From: a bacterium
GTDB taxonomy: Bacteria; Patescibacteriota; Patescibacteriia; UBA10025
Direction: 5' to 3'
Length of the DNA: 64,000 nucleotides
NCBI GenBank assembly: GCA_021815445.1
Contig: JAKAGM010000002.1
Coordinates: 31,373-95,372 of the forward strand
The stretch's first letter is position 1. Every line of letters begins with the position of its first letter. The notes below the pieces were generated by a model. It was not told where the DNA came from, made no database searches, and saw only the letters and a list, made by a program, of their open reading frames with translations. This document shows positions 19,782 through 53,583 of the stretch, piece after piece. Both the position numbers and the translations under genes were made by a program.

Positions 19782-20618
19782 TTAGAATACGAGTAAAATA
19801 ATCCCCCCAGCTAGAACAGCAAATAGGAGTATTTTGACGAGAGTATTTTTTTCCTTAAAGTAGGCTTTGCCGGAGAGAACGGACCAGAACACCGCAGAAG
19901 AGCGTTTTGCCGCTATGATAACTGAAGCGGGAGCCAAACCGTAGGCAAAGCTTTCAATAACCGCATCAATACCTTGTGTTGATGTTTGGGCCATGTAAAT
20001 GCGCTTCTTTAAAAAAACAAACGGATTTTCTTTTGCGAAAATATACGCACCAATCGAGAAAACTATAGACAACATTCCACAAGTTATCAGCTGTTCTGCC
20101 ACTACGGAATTAAAATGGCTAATGTTGTATTTATATAGCGAGGTGGTTATTGCCGCATTTACTGTGCAAAAAATGGTATATCCTATCCCCCTTTTGTTTA
20201 TAGAGTGGCTGGTAAAAATGAAAAGCAGAGAAAAAATGATTACCCCGATGCCAATAAGCTGGGTCAAATGCAGTTTGTACCCCAAGGTAATATCAATAAT
20301 CAGTACCAAAACTATCGTGCCGGTGCGTATAAAACCGTAGGTGCTGCGATCAGATCGCACCACCGCCATCATTGAAGTATGCAATTGCAGGATTTCTAAA
20401 ACAGCTCTGACTAAAAAAGTTGGCAACGACTGAACTGAAAAGACGAAGCTATTTTCCTTCACTATGGCGATTACCAAAAAGAATAGTGAAGCTCCTAGCA
20501 CGCTCAAAAAACCCATAGTGAAAACACTCTCCTCTTGCATTGCAACCTTCCACTTTCCAATTGAGGAAGAAATTTCCTCAAAAAGCGTGGCTAACGAAGT
20601 GAGAAAAACGCCTAGCAT
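19782..20618 (-). CDS. Hypothetical polytopic membrane protein (about 9-10 TM, possibly DMT/EamA-like)
   Basis: Hydrophobic throughout. It lies between csaA and a csaA 5' remnant. Confidence 0.4.
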   Translation of the reverse strand: MLGVFLTSLATLFEEISSSIGKWKVAMQEESVFTMGFLSVLGASLFFLVIAIVKENSFVFSVQSLPTFLVRAVLEILQLHTSMMAVVRSDRSTYGFIRTGTIVLVLIIDITLGYKLHLTQLIGIGVIIFSLLFIFTSHSINKRGIGYTIFCTVNAAITTSLYKYNISHFNSVVAEQLITCGMLSIVFSIGAYIFAKENPFVFLKKRIYMAQTSTQGIDAVIESFAYGLAPASVIIAAKRSSAVFWSVLSGKAYFKEKNTLVKILLFAVLAGGIILLVF

Positions 20619-20622
20619 AGTT

Positions 20623-20723
20623 TACTCGGTTTCCGCGCCTTAGGAAAAAGTTCGGCGCGAACGATTGTTCCCGCGCGTATGCCGGATTTTTCAAATTTAT
20701 CCCGGGTGATTGTTGAAATATTC
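20623..20723 (-). pseudogene. Remnant of a second csaA 5' end (first ~30 codons only)
   Basis: About 80% nucleotide identity to 19640-19735. It would encode [28 protein letters not shown] and then stops. Confidence 0.5.
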
Positions 20724-20784
20724 ATGTGGTTATAAATTTTTGGTAAATATACTGCAATAGTGAGTTGATATTGTGGTGTTTGGC

Positions 20785-21549
20785 TTAGCGATCCGGTAGT
20801 TTATCCCAAAGCAACATAAAAAAGTACTGAAACATTTGTGCCATTAAACCATCCTCTATTAACGCTATTTTGACAGCTTGGTCTTTGGAAGCAAGCGCAA
20901 CGACATTCCCGAAAAGCAGTATTCCTGCATCGATAGTAAAGTTCTTTTCTAAAAAGCGAAACTGACGAAAATTGCCGATCTTTTCTCCAAATCTTTTCTT
21001 TTCCACTATTCTCCGGTCAGTAATGGCATATGAGGTTGTAGCTTGCTTAAGGCGGCGAAGCGTAAGTCGACGATATAACTCCTCCTCGCCCACAAGGGAT
21101 AGTAACATGTCGATGGAGCCGAACCAGTACATGTTTGTTTTGGTTTCAATGATCTTGTCGATCATCAAACGCACTCCCGCGATGCCTTCGTAGTAATGCA
21201 CTTGTGTGGTAGCATTTTTTTTCTTCATCATCGCCATTAACTGGGGGATAAGACTGGCGATTACTTTCTCCTGCTGAGAAAGTTTTTCACTTTCATCAGC
21301 AAGGTATTCTCGGAAAGCCTGTTGTGGCTGTTCTGCAACGATGTATTTTCTTTTGCCCTTGATTTTATAACCGAGGACGCCTTTTTCCTTTAATTTTTCC
21401 AGATAGAAATACACCGTGGCGCGTTTAATACCAGTAATCCTAGCCAGGCTTGCGGGAGTATTTGATTCTTTTTCTAGACAACTGAGATATATCGCTGATT
21501 CTTTGTCGTCAAAACCGAGTTTTTTCAATAGGTTTTCCATAAGTGCCAT
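20785..21549 (-). CDS. TrmB family transcriptional regulator
   Basis: N-terminal wHTH: LLKKLGFDDKESAIYLSCLEKESNTPASLARITGIKRATVYFYLEKLKEKGVL. Confidence 0.65.
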   Translation of the reverse strand: MALMENLLKKLGFDDKESAIYLSCLEKESNTPASLARITGIKRATVYFYLEKLKEKGVLGYKIKGKRKYIVAEQPQQAFREYLADESEKLSQQEKVIASLIPQLMAMMKKKNATTQVHYYEGIAGVRLMIDKIIETKTNMYWFGSIDMLLSLVGEEELYRRLTLRRLKQATTSYAITDRRIVEKKRFGEKIGNFRQFRFLEKNFTIDAGILLFGNVVALASKDQAVKIALIEDGLMAQMFQYFFMLLWDKLPDR

Positions 21550-33410: not shown

Positions 33411-34622
33411 TCATGAAGTTTCTCGGGCGCCTAATTGGACGGCATCGCCGCGCCGTTCTACGCCGGTTCTCTCGATATAGTTCACTGCTTTATCGGAAAA
33501 CGCAGTCGGATAGGAATCTGCTTGGTATTCCAACTTTAATCTTGCTCTGTCGCTCGTCTCATCAAGCTCAAAGATGCCGTAGTACACGTTGTTTTCCTTT
33601 GTTGTGATTTTCAACCTGTGATTGGGATAATCTACTTCGAATGTACCGCTGATGTCCCCGGAAAACTTGTCGCCGCCCGATTCATCCTCTGCGGAAAGCA
33701 CTATATTCCCCGTGTAGTACGGCGTGCTTGCTTCGATAAAAGTGATAATGTCAATCGGCGGCCGGAGTTCCCACTTCGTGGTGAGAAGCCATGTGCCGGT
33801 TATTTTTCCTTCGTTGCCCGAATGAAGCAGAGGAGTATTCGTTAGGTAGGGCTGATAGGCGTTGAAAGCGGGGATTACTTGGCCGTCTTGCGTCGGTTCC
33901 AAATAATGTTTCTTCCACCAAGCGACCACTTTTTCCTTATCGCTGGTTTTCAAGTAATCGTACGGCGAAACTGAAGTGCCGTTACCCTTATCAATCCCGT
34001 CATCGCGCAACGAGTCTACTAAGGTAAATTCGCCGCTCGATATCGTCGGCTGGAAACTTTTGCCCGTGCCGATAGTATCTCCGATTTTGACAACTTCGCC
34101 GACTTTCACCACAGGTTGATCAATCTCCATATGGATACCGGAGAGGTTATGGCCATAGTCTACGCTGATATGGTATTCATCGCCTGACAGCGCGACGCTA
34201 GTGATAGTCCCGTCCCCCCAACTTCTAGCCGGTGTACCTTTTTTCAGTTCAATCCAGACGTGGTCCAGTCCTTCGATGTGGCCTCCTGCCGCCAATCCGT
34301 AGCCGACCATATACGTGTTGGTGCCCCCGAAGACCTCATCTTCAGTGTAAGGGAATGCCAGTCTCGTCGGCGAGCCGCAGTCGGGCACCGTCCACACGAT
34401 GTTGTCGAACATCGGATCTGGTCGGGCTTGGGTGCCGCAAGGTAATGTCCCACTGTTTGCATTCTTGGCAGTTTGCACATCAGCCTGTGCGCTATTTTGT
34501 ACGTTTTCTTGGGAGTTATCTCGGGGCTTATTCAACTTACTTTTTATATTTCCGTAGCTAGCTATGCCGGCTATGCCGAGGAGTGCAATGATGGCTATAG
34601 GAATGAGTACTTTTTTAGACAT
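33411..34622 (-). CDS. Secreted hypothetical protein (N-terminal TM/signal), possibly a degenerate M23/LytM-like domain
   Basis: Signal anchor. A GHIEGLDH...GHNLSGIHME region is weakly M23-like. Confidence 0.3.
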   Translation of the reverse strand: MSKKVLIPIAIIALLGIAGIASYGNIKSKLNKPRDNSQENVQNSAQADVQTAKNANSGTLPCGTQARPDPMFDNIVWTVPDCGSPTRLAFPYTEDEVFGGTNTYMVGYGLAAGGHIEGLDHVWIELKKGTPARSWGDGTITSVALSGDEYHISVDYGHNLSGIHMEIDQPVVKVGEVVKIGDTIGTGKSFQPTISSGEFTLVDSLRDDGIDKGNGTSVSPYDYLKTSDKEKVVAWWKKHYLEPTQDGQVIPAFNAYQPYLTNTPLLHSGNEGKITGTWLLTTKWELRPPIDIITFIEASTPYYTGNIVLSAEDESGGDKFSGDISGTFEVDYPNHRLKITTKENNVYYGIFELDETSDRARLKLEYQADSYPTAFSDKAVNYIERTGVERRGDAVQLGARETS

Positions 34623-34735
34623 AGATTTTTGTTAGCTTTTCGGCGTGAAATTTTTGATTGAGGCAGGAGAGTTGGGTTATGAGTTTTTTGAACGTCATCT
34701 TATTGCCCTTACTCGTTATTAACAAGATCAGAAAT

Positions 34736-35704
34736 TTAATTTTCCACTTGCGTAGTAATTAATAACCCGATGAGCCGATGCACCTCAATAAAAGATTCTT
34801 TGATCACTTTTTTATCAGTTATCGGTGTGCCACCTTCATGGACAATACCGTTTCTCCATCTAATTATATTGTTGATTTTTTTGTAGTCTACTTTTTTAAA
34901 CTTCTCCAGGGACCTGATAAATAAATTGACTTTATAGTAGACGCCCGCTTTAAGTATATTACTCTTATCTCTTTGTTCGAGCATATAATTTTGAGAAGTA
35001 TATTTTAAAATGTATTTGCTGATCGCAATCTCTAGCGCCGTAATTATTTCGATAATTGCTAATCGGTAATTGTGTTTAATTAAATACTCAATTGAATTAT
35101 TTAATATAATAATTTCTGAAAGTAACCTTTGATTCGATATTATGGACTTAATAACATATTGAAATCGCTGTGCGTCAATTTCTTCAATATCTTTGTAGGA
35201 TGAGCTAAACAGCGCAATGATTGAGCGATAGTCTTTAATTTTTTCCCATTTCCCATCTTTTTTTATTTCTACTTGCCATAAATTAATGTAACTAGAATAA
35301 TCTCTCGAGTCTTCATTTATTTCATGTAAGTTTAAAATATGGCCAATATTTCTGAAATGAAGTATTAAAAGATTTATTATTTTTAGAGTTCTGCGATAGA
35401 TTTTTCTCGTATCTTTGTATAGATTGTGTTTAGACTCTAGGTCATAGTAAACAATTAAGTAATCTACTTTTATGATAAATCGTTCATCTTCAGACTTAAC
35501 AGGGCCAAGGCGCTCCATGTTTAATTTGACTTTACAGTTTATTTTTCTTTCTAATTGAAAAGTAAACTGAGTTTGGAAAGTTGATAGTTCTGTACTTTTT
35601 ACTGGAATGGCAATATTTACTGGGTACTTAAACTTAAAGTGATATCTCATAGTACAAATTGAATCTTTACTACTTGTTTTTTTAATACTATTATCACTAC
35701 CCAC
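34736..35704 (-). CDS. AT-rich hypothetical protein with C-terminal Rx4H (HEPN-like) motif; candidate Abi/defense protein
   Basis: Gene GC is far below the flanking DNA. The C-terminal NIIRWRNGIVHEGG carries R-x4-H in a predicted helical region. About 320 aa, similar in size to Abi_2/AbiD-like proteins. Confidence 0.35.
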   Translation of the reverse strand: MGSDNSIKKTSSKDSICTMRYHFKFKYPVNIAIPVKSTELSTFQTQFTFQLERKINCKVKLNMERLGPVKSEDERFIIKVDYLIVYYDLESKHNLYKDTRKIYRRTLKIINLLILHFRNIGHILNLHEINEDSRDYSSYINLWQVEIKKDGKWEKIKDYRSIIALFSSSYKDIEEIDAQRFQYVIKSIISNQRLLSEIIILNNSIEYLIKHNYRLAIIEIITALEIAISKYILKYTSQNYMLEQRDKSNILKAGVYYKVNLFIRSLEKFKKVDYKKINNIIRWRNGIVHEGGTPITDKKVIKESFIEVHRLIGLLITTQVEN

Positions 35705-35777
35705 AGCCCCACTGACGGCACGAGGTAGGCGAGGTCAAACCAGCCGACTTGGTTTTATTGAGGGTTCAGTGACATTC

Positions 35778-36194
35778 CTATGTTTCATGCAGCTCGTAAG
35801 ATGTTTTTATCCACTGCAAGAGCTTAGCATCGACATCCTTTTTGCTCTTCAGGTCAAAGTAGTAGAGGTAGCGATTAGGGGACATGCGGATCATTTTATA
35901 TAGTTTCTTGGTTTTAATTTTACCATCAGTGCGGAAATCAATCCGGATTCTGTCCCGGAGCGCCCATACTCCGCCAAACGTGTATGTGCTGACCAGATGG
36001 ATACAGCAGGGCAGGGATTCTATTTTCACCGGTCCGATTTTTTTCGTGATTTCCTGCTTCAGGTGTCCAAACAGTCCCTTGGCGTATTCCTTATTCTTGA
36101 AATGGTTTGCGAGCGGGTAGCTGACGCAGGAGTGCGCCTGGTTTTTCTTCTCAAATTGCCGTTTGCACTTCGGGCAAGTCCAAAGTTTTTGCAT
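35778..36194 (-). CDS. Hypothetical protein with N-terminal zinc-finger-like CPKCx10HSC
   Basis: MQKLWTCPKCKRQFEKKNQAHSC. Adjacent to the AT-rich gene. Confidence 0.35.
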   Translation of the reverse strand: MQKLWTCPKCKRQFEKKNQAHSCVSYPLANHFKNKEYAKGLFGHLKQEITKKIGPVKIESLPCCIHLVSTYTFGGVWALRDRIRIDFRTDGKIKTKKLYKMIRMSPNRYLYYFDLKSKKDVDAKLLQWIKTSYELHET

Positions 36195-36246
36195 AAGTTA
36201 TCAATACATTGTCAGCTCCCGTTCAGCCGGGGGAGCTGGCGACCAA

Positions 36247-40551: not shown

Positions 40552-40863
40552 TCATACTGTGTCATCATCATACCACCCATCGCTTAGGTCTTTCCAATCT
40601 GGATTGATGCTATTTACCAAATCAATCTTCTTTTTTCGCGATCCGGCTTTTATTTGTTTTTCTCTGTAAATTGCATCATCGATATATTCGAATTCCTCAT
40701 AGTAAACAAGTTTCGTGAGATTGTACCTTTTTGTAAAGCCTTCGATTTCTTTCTTTTTATGCTGCAGGACACGTACCTCAAGTCCACCCGTTACCCCAGT
40801 ATAGAGTGTTGTATTTCCTTTATTGGTCATGATGTAGACGCAGTAGCTCTGTTCTTCACGCAT
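40552..40863 (-). CDS. GIY-YIG nuclease family protein (small, ~100 aa)
   Basis: YCVYIMTNKGNTTLYTGVTGGLEVRVLQHK is a GIY-YIG module. A CCCCCGCCTTTCGCGAAAGGCGGGGG hairpin lies upstream. Confidence 0.7.
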   Translation of the reverse strand: MREEQSYCVYIMTNKGNTTLYTGVTGGLEVRVLQHKKKEIEGFTKRYNLTKLVYYEEFEYIDDAIYREKQIKAGSRKKKIDLVNSINPDWKDLSDGWYDDDTV

Positions 40864-53415: not shown

Positions 53416-53583
53416 CATGGGATGCAATATTCACAAAAAGCCAGCTCAGCGGCGGTGAGTGGCGGGCGATTTATGAGTTCCGGAGCGGAGGAGGTGACGC
53501 CACAAATCGGTGGGGCAGGGATTTGTTACGGAACAAGCCCCAAACGGAGGAGAGAGGATTCGTCACGGGGGGAACCTGCAAAA

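What the first reader, a model, noticed from the sequence alone, without database searches (positions are those of the whole stretch)
34640..36200. AT-rich foreign-looking island encoding an Rx4H (HEPN-like) protein next to a zinc-finger-like protein
The 322-aa ORF at 34736-35704 has markedly lower GC than its neighbours, with long A/T runs and Lys/Ile/Asn-rich coding. No homolog is obvious. Its C-terminus carries RWRNGIVH, an R-x4-H motif like that of HEPN RNase domains found in Abi2/AbiD-type abortive-infection proteins. The adjacent 138-aa protein begins with a CPKC...HSC zinc-finger-like motif. This is a candidate horizontally acquired phage-defense or toxin module.
Basis: partly seen in the sequence, partly recalled or inferred. 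Interest (0 to 1): 0.6.

Follow-up and report, generated by a model that had tools for sequence, protein, structure and literature searches.

The report
Foreign one-gene island encoding HEPN RNase
A 1-kb AT-rich insertion, absent from the same site in a sister strain, carries one gene for an uncharacterised HEPN-fold protein with an invariant RNase motif, most likely a self-contained anti-phage or toxin RNase; the neighbouring "zinc-finger" gene is ordinary core genome.

Summary
The ORF at 34736-35704(-) exists, and its likely true start is the ATG at 35650 (304 aa). Its GC is 0.297, against 0.488 +/- 0.044 for 62 window ORFs (z = -4.3).

A sister-strain contig places the foreign segment at about 34699-35703, which is this one gene only. 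That contig carries three different genes at the same site.

The protein is not an orphan. An exhaustive search found 125 distant relatives (22-36% identity), scattered across many bacterial phyla. The family gene has lower GC than its flanks in 56 of 59 loci, and no neighbouring gene is conserved.

- R266-N267-x3-H271 is present in 124, 122 and 124 of 127 family sequences, and E201 in all 127.
- The AlphaFold model built with the family alignment has pLDDT 92.
- The N-terminal 160-residue alpha/beta domain matches no known fold.
- No Pfam, NCBIfam or PADLOC model captures the protein.

Best reading: a solo sensor-plus-HEPN RNase acting in abortive infection or as a toxin. RNase activity and the defence role are inferred, not tested. 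The adjacent 138-aa protein is a core-genome DUF5655 gene with normal GC, and is not a partner.

The parts
34736..35650 (-). Gene for the 304-aa HEPN-family protein (P0001), stop codon included. The 322-aa reading from GTG 35704 is probably an upstream over-extension.
   Evidence: ORF. The same 304-aa product is called in GCA_027341205.1. Family N-termini align to the Met at 35650. The AlphaFold model with the family alignment has pLDDT 92 and pTM 0.88.
35171..35650 (-). N-terminal alpha/beta domain, residues 1 to about 160. It has four long beta-strands, a long helix ending in the conserved N93...R100-N-x-G103 motif, and a small beta-hairpin carrying the W-x-V-E...DG..W motif. It is the proposed sensor or regulatory domain, and its fold is unassigned.
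34739..35128 (-). C-terminal HEPN domain, residues about 175-304. It is a helical bundle with helices at 178-191, 195-221, 256-271 and 280-303, plus an insert at 226-245.
34838..34855 (-). Codons for R266-N267-G-I-V-H271, the predicted RNase catalytic motif (R-[N]-x3-H).
   Evidence: Codons read from the sequence. R is present in 124, N in 122 and H in 124 of 127 family sequences; the remainder are mostly gaps or truncations. The motif is as defined for HEPN in PMC3710099.
34699..35703 (.). The AT-rich foreign segment itself, about 1.0 kb, holding exactly one gene. Boundaries are good to about +/-20 bp.
   Evidence: blastn and pairwise alignment to sister contig L016: homology stops at window 35704 on one side and resumes at 34683-34700 on the other. 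L016 has 2.4 kb of different genes in between. The GC step is seen.
35704..35753 (-). A 50-bp remnant of the 3' end of a 113-aa membrane-protein gene that is intact in the sister strain. It marks the upstream junction and an adjacent deletion.
   Evidence: 92% identity to L016 2337-2386, which lies inside the L016 gene at 2087-2428.
35778..36194 (-). Flanking core gene, not part of the element: a 138-aa DUF5655 protein with an N-terminal C-x2-C...H-x-C motif.
   Evidence: Pfam PF18899, E 5.9e-9, 36.4 bits against a cut-off of 24. GC is about 0.46. Its 3' end is 86% identical in L016, where an aminotransferase gene follows it.
34615..34698 (-). Flanking core feature, not part of the element: a conserved 27-codon small ORF whose stop overlaps the start of the M23-peptidase gene (33411-34622). 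It marks the downstream junction.
   Evidence: Read. The sister strain encodes MTAQHLLTLFTRLNHKLSAEKLTKIYV, against MTFKKLITQLSCLNQKFHAEKLTKIYV here.

Best explanation
The segment at about 34699-35703 is a horizontally acquired one-gene cargo. It sits in a strain-variable spot of the chromosome of an uncultivated bacterium (assembly GCA_027341205.1).

Its product belongs to a previously unnamed family of two-domain proteins. An N-terminal alpha/beta domain of unknown fold is joined to a C-terminal HEPN domain that carries an intact R-N-x3-H site.

The proposed mechanism, by analogy with characterised HEPN enzymes, has four steps:
1. The protein homo-oligomerises through the HEPN domain, so that two R-N-x3-H motifs form a composite, metal-independent RNase site.
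2. The N-terminal domain keeps the enzyme inactive, or senses a trigger such as a phage component.
3. On activation the enzyme cuts cellular RNA (tRNA anticodon loops, rRNA or mRNA), leaving 2',3'-cyclic phosphate ends.
4. Translation stops and the infected cell is sacrificed or arrested. This is abortive infection by a solo HEPN protein.

Shown here:
- the gene and its foreign composition;
- the presence/absence difference between strains;
- the existence of the family, its patchy spread and its AT bias;
- the HEPN fold and near-invariance of the catalytic residues;
- the absence of a conserved partner gene.

Inferred:
- oligomerisation;
- RNase activity and its substrate;
- the sensor role of the N-terminal domain;
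- the anti-phage function.
For: - **Active site.** R266, N267 and H271 are present in 124, 122 and 124 of 127 sequences. E201 is present in 127 of 127, R196 in 125 and N185 in 123. This matches the HEPN definition: Rx4-6H, a polar N/D/H after the R, and an upstream acidic residue (PMC3710099).
- **Sequence-level HEPN signal.** 23 of 60 members hit PF18735. A few hit PF18737, PF18739, or the PADLOC RT-associated-HEPN and Csx1/Csm6 models.
- **Foreign origin.** GC z = -4.3. Sister contig L016, whose flanking M23 protein is 93% identical, has other genes at the site.
- **Mobility of the family.** Members occur in Paenibacillus, Elusimicrobia, Clostridia, Acidobacteriota lineages, Tectomicrobia, Melainabacteria, Dadabacteria and Bacillota. 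The family gene has lower GC than its flanks in 56 of 59 loci. One member lies beside an integrase inside a prophage-like element, and one lies on an IMG/VR contig.
- **Solo status.** No neighbour recurs across unrelated loci. No antitoxin-like ORF, Rfam RNA or tandem repeat lies in or beside the island.
- **Defence-like company.** Neighbour ORFs at 13 genome loci include AbiEi/AbiEii, pAgo plus SIR2 and several PADLOC candidate families. The sister strain's alternative cargo includes a methyltransferase that matches PADLOC mad2 at 8e-11.
- **Precedent.** HepS is a single HEPN protein with no partner. It is inactive by default, is triggered by a phage protein, and cleaves tRNA anticodon loops (PMC13043305).
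Against: - No experiment bears on activity or phenotype.
- PADLOC, Pfam and NCBIfam do not recognise the protein.
- Enrichment of defence genes near family members was seen but not measured against a background. Most neighbours are housekeeping genes.
- No homolog was found in 50,697 phage or 72,556 plasmid records. There is no integrase, transposase, tRNA or flanking repeat at this locus, so the route of acquisition is unknown.
- Dimer geometry and the positions of the conserved N-terminal residues relative to the active site could not be examined.
- Only one close relative of the host was available for the presence/absence test.
Confidence: 0.6

Rival explanations
1. It is the toxin of a toxin-antitoxin or addiction module. 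Its antitoxin has not been recognised: it could be encoded elsewhere, be an RNA, or be the protein's own N-terminal domain. On this reading the gene serves its own persistence rather than phage defence.
Against: The island holds a single ORF, with 53 bp upstream and about 37 bp downstream. There is no MNT or nucleotidyltransferase neighbour here. Only 2 of 126 neighbour ORFs elsewhere have NTP_transf_2. No gene recurs beside the family. No Rfam hit or repeat array suggests an RNA antitoxin.
Confidence: 0.15
2. It is a host RNA-processing or regulatory RNase, or an RNA- or nucleotide-binding HEPN protein, that happens to be AT-rich. It would play no role in conflict.
Against: The gene is missing from the same site in a sister strain whose flanking DNA is 92% identical. 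Its distribution across phyla is sporadic, with only 125 clusters among 1.84 billion representatives. Its GC is systematically lower than its flanks. Copies are often disrupted. Non-catalytic HEPN domains usually lose Rx4H (PMC3710099), whereas here the motif is near-invariant.
Confidence: 0.12
3. It is a decaying or non-functional remnant, a spurious ORF in AT-rich junk DNA.
For: The 322-aa GTG start lies in junction DNA. No Shine-Dalgarno sequence is obvious before ATG 35650. Promoter-like matches do not exceed those in shuffled sequence.
Against: The ORF is full length and aligns end to end with relatives. All near-invariant residues are retained. The model has high confidence. An uninterrupted 915-nt ORF in DNA of 30% GC is very unlikely by chance. 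The identical protein is present on 10 assembled contigs.
Confidence: 0.05

Closest known systems
HepS (Gifsy-1 prophage 'HEPN Solo' abortive-infection protein; PDB 9oik; PMC13043305)
   Different: No sequence similarity was detectable. HepS is 218 aa and essentially HEPN only, whereas this family has a conserved 160-residue N-terminal alpha/beta domain, and most members have a further 110-residue C-terminal domain. The trigger, oligomeric state and substrate are unknown here.
HEPN domain of AbiA (Lactococcus lactis abortive-infection polymerase; PDB 8oz7)
   Different: In AbiA the partner domain is a reverse-transcriptase-like polymerase. Here it is a small beta-rich domain with no polymerase motifs. 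Sequence identity is 14%.
HepT toxins of HEPN-MNT toxin-antitoxin pairs (e.g. SO_3166, PDB 5yep; 7ae2; 8xdj)
   Different: Those are proteins of about 130-140 aa that are always paired with an MNT antitoxin gene, which AMPylates them. No MNT gene is adjacent here or consistently near relatives.
Pfam PF18735 HEPN_RiboL-PSP, and PF18737 MAE_28990/MAE_18760-like HEPN (families defined in Anantharaman et al. 2013, PMC3710099)
   Same: These are the nearest sequence models. 23 of 60 relatives match PF18735 over the half of the model that holds the Rx4H motif, and 3 of 60 match PF18737. The MAE_18760 family is described as fused to a beta-rich N-terminal domain of about 121 aa and as having Abi-like architectures.
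   Different: All scores are below the curated thresholds: 19-25 bits against 28.4, and about 16 bits against 26.8. The window protein itself gives no hit. Equivalence of the N-terminal domain with MAE_18760-NTD1 could not be tested.

Membership tests
HEPN superfamily | Alpha-helical up-down bundle of about 100-120 residues, superposable on solved HEPN domains | tested here: met
HEPN superfamily | Rx4-6H motif with a polar residue (N/D/H) after the R, conserved across the family | tested here: met
   R266-N267-G-I-V-H271. R is present in 124, N in 122 and H in 124 of 127 relatives. It is invariant in the 60-sequence alignment.
HEPN superfamily | Second conserved acidic residue upstream of the motif (often E-x3-[KR]) | tested here: met
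   E201 is present in 127 of 127, E207 in 123 of 127 and E188 in 101 of 127. P0001 has E188-Y-L-I-K192. Spatial proximity to R266/H271 was not checked, because no coordinates were available.
HEPN superfamily | Metal-independent endoribonuclease activity | not testable with these tools
   Requires biochemistry.
Pfam PF18735 HEPN_RiboL-PSP | Score at or above the gathering threshold (28.4 bits) | tested here: not met
   P0001 gives no hit at E<=1. Relatives score 19.2-24.7 bits. The best E-value among the 60 members is 9.8e-6.
Pfam PF18737 MAE_28990/MAE_18760-like HEPN | Score at or above the gathering threshold (26.8 bits) | tested here: not met
   Relatives score 15.8-16.5 bits, and only 3 of 60 match at E<=0.1.
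   No Abi_2 family appears among the Pfam families matched by P0001 or its 59 aligned relatives at E<=0.1. PADLOC gives no Abi hit for the protein.
HEPN-MNT (HepT/MntA) toxin-antitoxin | Adjacent minimal nucleotidyltransferase (MNT) antitoxin gene | tested here: not met
   The neighbours are a DUF5655 protein and an M23 peptidase. The island holds one gene. NTP_transf_2 occurs in only 2 of 126 neighbour ORFs at other loci.
CRISPR ancillary Csm6/Csx1 | CARF sensor domain fused to HEPN, with a type III CRISPR-Cas neighbourhood | tested here: not met
   There are only weak PADLOC hits (best 5.7e-4, 4 of 60 members). The N-terminal domain is beta-rich, with no CARF match. No cas gene families occur within +/-10 kb.
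Any catalogued anti-phage system (PADLOC-DB v2.0.0) | Significant match to a system protein model | tested here: not met
   There are 0 families for P0001 at E<=1.
Classical genomic island / integron cassette / prophage | Integrase or transposase, tRNA target, flanking direct repeats or an attC site | tested here: not met
   No integrase or transposase Pfam family lies within +/-10 kb. The only tRNA is at 53583. Only short chance-level repeats flank the island. An attC-specific model was not run.
HepS-like solo HEPN abortive infection (functional class) | A single HEPN protein that is sufficient for phage sensing and abortive infection | not testable with these tools
   Solo status and accessory location are met. 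Phenotype needs experiments.

The most novel reading that the evidence does not exclude
This is the first noticed member of an undescribed family of self-contained bacterial immune proteins. The family has about 125 sequence clusters spread over many phyla. In it, a new N-terminal alpha/beta sensor fold, carrying its own invariant N...R-N-x-G motif, gates a HEPN RNase. The gene travels as a one-gene cassette into strain-variable hotspots. The same hotspot in a sister strain carries a MADS-like methyltransferase and two further AT-rich orphan genes.
Probability: 0.4. Interest if true: 0.55.

Novelty: new variant of a known kind. Interest (0 to 1): 0.42.

Why it matters
HEPN RNases are among the commonest effectors of prokaryotic immunity and toxin systems. 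Even so, only a few solo HEPN proteins have a known trigger, HepS being one.

This family is absent from Pfam, NCBIfam and PADLOC. It has a high-confidence predicted structure and a clear catalytic motif to mutate. It also has a conserved N-terminal domain of unknown fold that is a natural candidate sensor. Together these make it a compact and testable addition to the defence catalogue.

The locus is also a clean natural example of cargo swapping at a fixed chromosomal hotspot in an uncultivated bacterium. If the family proves to be ordinary, the result is still a better annotation for about 125 protein clusters now labelled hypothetical.

Tried and rejected
- **Direct family searches of the window protein.** Pfam, NCBIfam, PADLOC and PDB sequence searches found nothing. 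PHROGs gave only a 0.0075 hit to a family of unknown function.
- **Word-indexed homolog search.** It returned only the protein itself. A profile version was limited by the candidate cap to 5 hits.
- **Single-sequence AlphaFold.** pLDDT was 40, which is unusable. It was replaced by the alignment-based model.
- **Profile against PDB sequences.** No HEPN entry was found. There was only a motif-level resemblance of W-x-V-E-x-S-x-DG-x-W to discoidin/F5/8-C domains (E 0.11), judged to be chance.
- **Fold of the N-terminal domain.** Foldseek against PDB and BFVD gave no hit. AFDB50 was unavailable.
- **The 138-aa neighbour as a partner.** Rejected: it is core genome with normal GC and is not a conserved neighbour.
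- **The sister strain's 237-aa protein.** It carries RRRYLH, but hhalign gives probability 0.2% that it belongs to the family.
- **RNA antitoxin, repeats and expression signals.** No Rfam hit, no meaningful tandem repeat, and promoter or terminator scans at the level of shuffled sequence.
- **Flanking repeats, tRNA and integrase.** None found.
- **Plasmid and phage record searches.** No match.
- **Host taxonomy.** Cluster look-ups and a literature search for the assembly accession gave no name.
- **First related-locus scan.** The 60-sequence alignment was too diverse to use. A 16-sequence sub-alignment was used instead.

Full report
**1. The observation**

The window has an ORF at 34736-35704 on the minus strand, 322 aa from a GTG. 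The public assembly that holds this sequence is GCA_027341205.1, contig DAIENG010000002.1. It calls the gene from the ATG at 35650, giving 304 aa (P0001). The N-termini of relatives align to that Met.

The gene's GC is 0.297 and its GC3 is 0.291. The 62 window ORFs of at least 100 aa average 0.488 (sd 0.044) and 0.546 (sd 0.062). This gives z = -4.3 and -4.1, and nothing else in 64 kb comes close. In 100-bp windows the GC drops sharply at about 35700 and recovers at about 34650.

The motif RWRNGIVH is present. One R-x4-H is not significant in itself, since 0.44 are expected per protein of this composition.

The adjacent 138-aa ORF (35778-36194, minus strand) does begin with C-P-K-C...H-S-C. 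However, its GC is about 0.46.

**2. Boundaries and foreign origin**

The downstream M23-peptidase-like neighbour (33411-34622) has a 93%-identical homolog on a 6.8-kb contig from another sample (L016). blastn and pairwise alignment of L016 against the window show three matches:
- L016 4769-6090 matches window 34683-33362 at 92%.
- L016 1-145 matches window 35927-35783 at 86%. This is the 3' end of the 138-aa gene.
- L016 2337-2386 matches window 35753-35704 at 92%.

Between the last two anchors the window has the HEPN gene. L016 instead has 2.4 kb encoding three other proteins:
- a 237-aa protein (GC 0.35);
- a 217-aa protein (GC 0.36);
- a 284-aa methyltransferase-like protein that matches the PADLOC model mad2 at 8e-11.

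The foreign segment is therefore about 34699-35703. It lies between a 50-bp remnant of a membrane-protein gene that is intact in L016 and a conserved 27-codon small ORF that overlaps the M23 start.

No integrase, transposase, tRNA gene or convincing flanking repeat accompanies it. The means of insertion is unknown.

**3. The protein is not an orphan**

The word-indexed search of 5.8 billion proteins found only the protein itself. Exhaustive phmmer against 1.84 billion cluster representatives found 125 relatives at E<=1e-3, 19 of them at E<=1e-10. Identities are 22-36% and lengths 148-456 aa.

Scans of genome, metagenome and viral collections with a sub-alignment recovered 13, 57 and 1 loci respectively. 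The genome hits come from:
- Paenibacillus;
- Elusimicrobia;
- Clostridia and other Bacillota;
- Blastocatellia, Terriglobia and Acidobacteriaceae;
- Tectomicrobia;
- Melainabacteria;
- Dadabacteria.

This is a thin, patchy spread.

In 56 of 59 loci with enough flank, the family gene has lower GC than its surroundings. The mean difference is -6.3 points. It reaches about -20 points in this window and in three further distinct loci: a Dadabacteria contig (L012), the IMG/VR contig (L018, also recovered as L021), and L047.

One member lies directly upstream of a phage-type integrase, in an element that also has primase, terminase and resolvase genes. Several copies are split into two ORFs (L012, L014, L070-L074). 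Near-identical contigs L063-L065 keep the gene intact.

**4. What the protein is**

In an alignment of 127 family sequences, conservation is as follows:

| Residue (304-aa numbering) | Sequences retaining it |
|---|---|
| R266 | 124 of 127 |
| N267 | 122 of 127 |
| H271 | 124 of 127 |
| E201 | 127 of 127 |
| R196 | 125 of 127 |
| N185 | 123 of 127 |
| E207 | 123 of 127 |
| R100 (N-terminal half) | 121 of 122 non-gap |

For R266, N267 and H271, the exceptions are mostly gaps in truncated sequences.

R-N-x3-H is the canonical form of the HEPN Rx4-6H motif. In that motif the residue after the R is typically N, D or H, and a second conserved acidic residue lies upstream (PMC3710099).

AlphaFold without an alignment failed (pLDDT 40). 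With the 60-sequence alignment it gave pLDDT 92 and pTM 0.88.

- further HEPN toxins;

At the sequence level, 23 of 60 members weakly match Pfam HEPN_RiboL-PSP, and a few match the MAE_28990 and Apea HEPN models. All are below the curated thresholds. PADLOC gives only weak hits, to RT-associated HEPN and Csx1/Csm6 models.

The N-terminal 160 residues comprise four long strands, a long helix ending in the conserved R100-N-x-G motif, and a small hairpin. They have no confident structural match. This domain accompanies the HEPN domain in nearly all full-length relatives.

About two thirds of the family (79 of 127) carry a further C-terminal domain of about 110 residues. The window protein and 40 others lack it.

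**5. Partners**

Clustering the neighbour ORFs of all loci shows no gene that recurs beside the family, apart from near-identical contigs of one population.

Pfam on 126 neighbour ORFs shows mostly unrelated housekeeping families. PADLOC on the same set shows scattered defence genes: an AbiEi/AbiEii pair, pAgo with SIR2 proteins, and several candidate PDC families. This was not tested against a background.

The 138-aa neighbour in the window is a Pfam DUF5655 protein (36.4 bits against a cut-off of 24). It belongs to the core genome, because in L016 it is followed by an aminotransferase gene.

No Rfam family, tandem repeat or small ORF in or beside the island suggests an antitoxin. The element is a single-gene unit.

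**6. Most likely mechanism**

All characterised HEPN proteins that keep the Rx4-6H motif are metal-independent endoribonucleases. Their active site is completed by dimerisation (PMC3710099; PMC13043305).

The most economical reading is a solo, self-gated HEPN RNase:
- the HEPN domain oligomerises and cuts RNA;
- the conserved N-terminal domain holds it off or senses a trigger;
- the outcome is growth arrest or abortive infection.

HepS shows that one HEPN protein with no partner can both sense a phage protein and cleave tRNA anticodon loops.

I put this reading at about 0.6. The HEPN fold and the intact catalytic motif are near certain. RNase activity is likely. The defence role is plausible but untested.

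The rivals, with evidence in their own sections, are:
- a toxin with an unrecognised antitoxin (0.15);
- a non-conflict RNA-processing or binding protein (0.12);
- a dead ORF (0.05).

**7. Comparison and novelty**

The protein is a member of the HEPN superfamily by fold, by motif and by the conserved acidic residue. It fails the thresholds of the nearest Pfam HEPN families. It also fails every test for HEPN-MNT, Csm6/Csx1, Abi2/AbiD and catalogued PADLOC systems.

Functionally it most resembles HepS and the N-terminal-domain-plus-HEPN 'Abi-like' architectures described for the AbiJ and MAE_18760 families.

It is therefore a new variant of a known kind: an unnamed HEPN family with an unassigned N-terminal domain. 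It is not a new principle.

**8. Verdict**

The suggested two-gene module and the Abi2/AbiD affiliation are not supported.

Interest is moderate. The finding is unsurprising to a specialist. It is, however, clean, experimentally tractable and currently unannotated.

Noticed in passing
window 34615-34698 (-): A 27-codon small ORF (MTFKKLITQLSCLNQKFHAEKLTKIYV) lies immediately upstream of the M23-peptidase-like gene. Its stop overlaps that gene's ATG (ATGTCTAA). The C-terminal half is conserved in the sister contig L016. It could be a leader peptide or a translational-coupling element.
   Followed up: partly
window 35704-35782, compared with L016 146-2428: The window retains only the last 50 bp of a 113-aa membrane-protein gene that is intact in the sister strain. 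It also lacks the aminotransferase (473 aa) and 81-aa genes that precede it there. This is a deletion or rearrangement next to the island. The remnant frame runs into the AT-rich DNA and stops at a TGA overlapping the HEPN ATG.
   Followed up: partly
L016 2455-4757: The same chromosomal site in the sister strain carries different low-GC cargo. There are two orphan proteins (237 aa and 217 aa, GC 0.35-0.36) and a 284-aa methyltransferase-like protein matching the PADLOC MADS component mad2 (8e-11). The site behaves as a variable cargo hotspot.
   Followed up: partly
L063-L065 versus L070-L074; also L012 and L014: Family genes are intact (343 aa) in some near-identical metagenome contigs and split into two ORFs (187 + 141 aa) in others. 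Copies are also split in a Dadabacteria locus and a Terriglobales locus. This suggests recurrent inactivation of a costly gene.
   Followed up: no
L004 8254-9681, L005 7352-8683, L031 1224-2531, L032 1134-2438 and 3909-5288: In four unrelated loci the family gene lies within about 1 kb of a homologous 435-475-aa protein. This protein is probably a MiaB/RimO-like radical-SAM methylthiotransferase (UPF0004 + Radical_SAM + TRAM appear in the pooled Pfam scan). It may be a favoured insertion site or a coincidence.
   Followed up: no
window 40552-40863 (-): A small 103-aa GIY-YIG domain gene is the second-lowest-GC ORF in the window (0.388, z = -2.3).
   Followed up: no
window 19782-21549 (-): Two adjacent ORFs (278 aa and 254 aa) have moderately low GC of 0.41 (z about -1.7 to -1.8). 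The 1-kb window 20001-21000 is the second-lowest in the profile (0.397). This may be another acquired segment.
   Followed up: no
window 35778-36194 (-): The DUF5655 protein has an N-terminal C-x2-C-x10-H-x-C motif (residues 7-23). It lies outside the Pfam DUF5655 match, which covers residues 30-136. It may be a small zinc-binding extension. Its conservation in the DUF5655 family was not examined.
   Followed up: no
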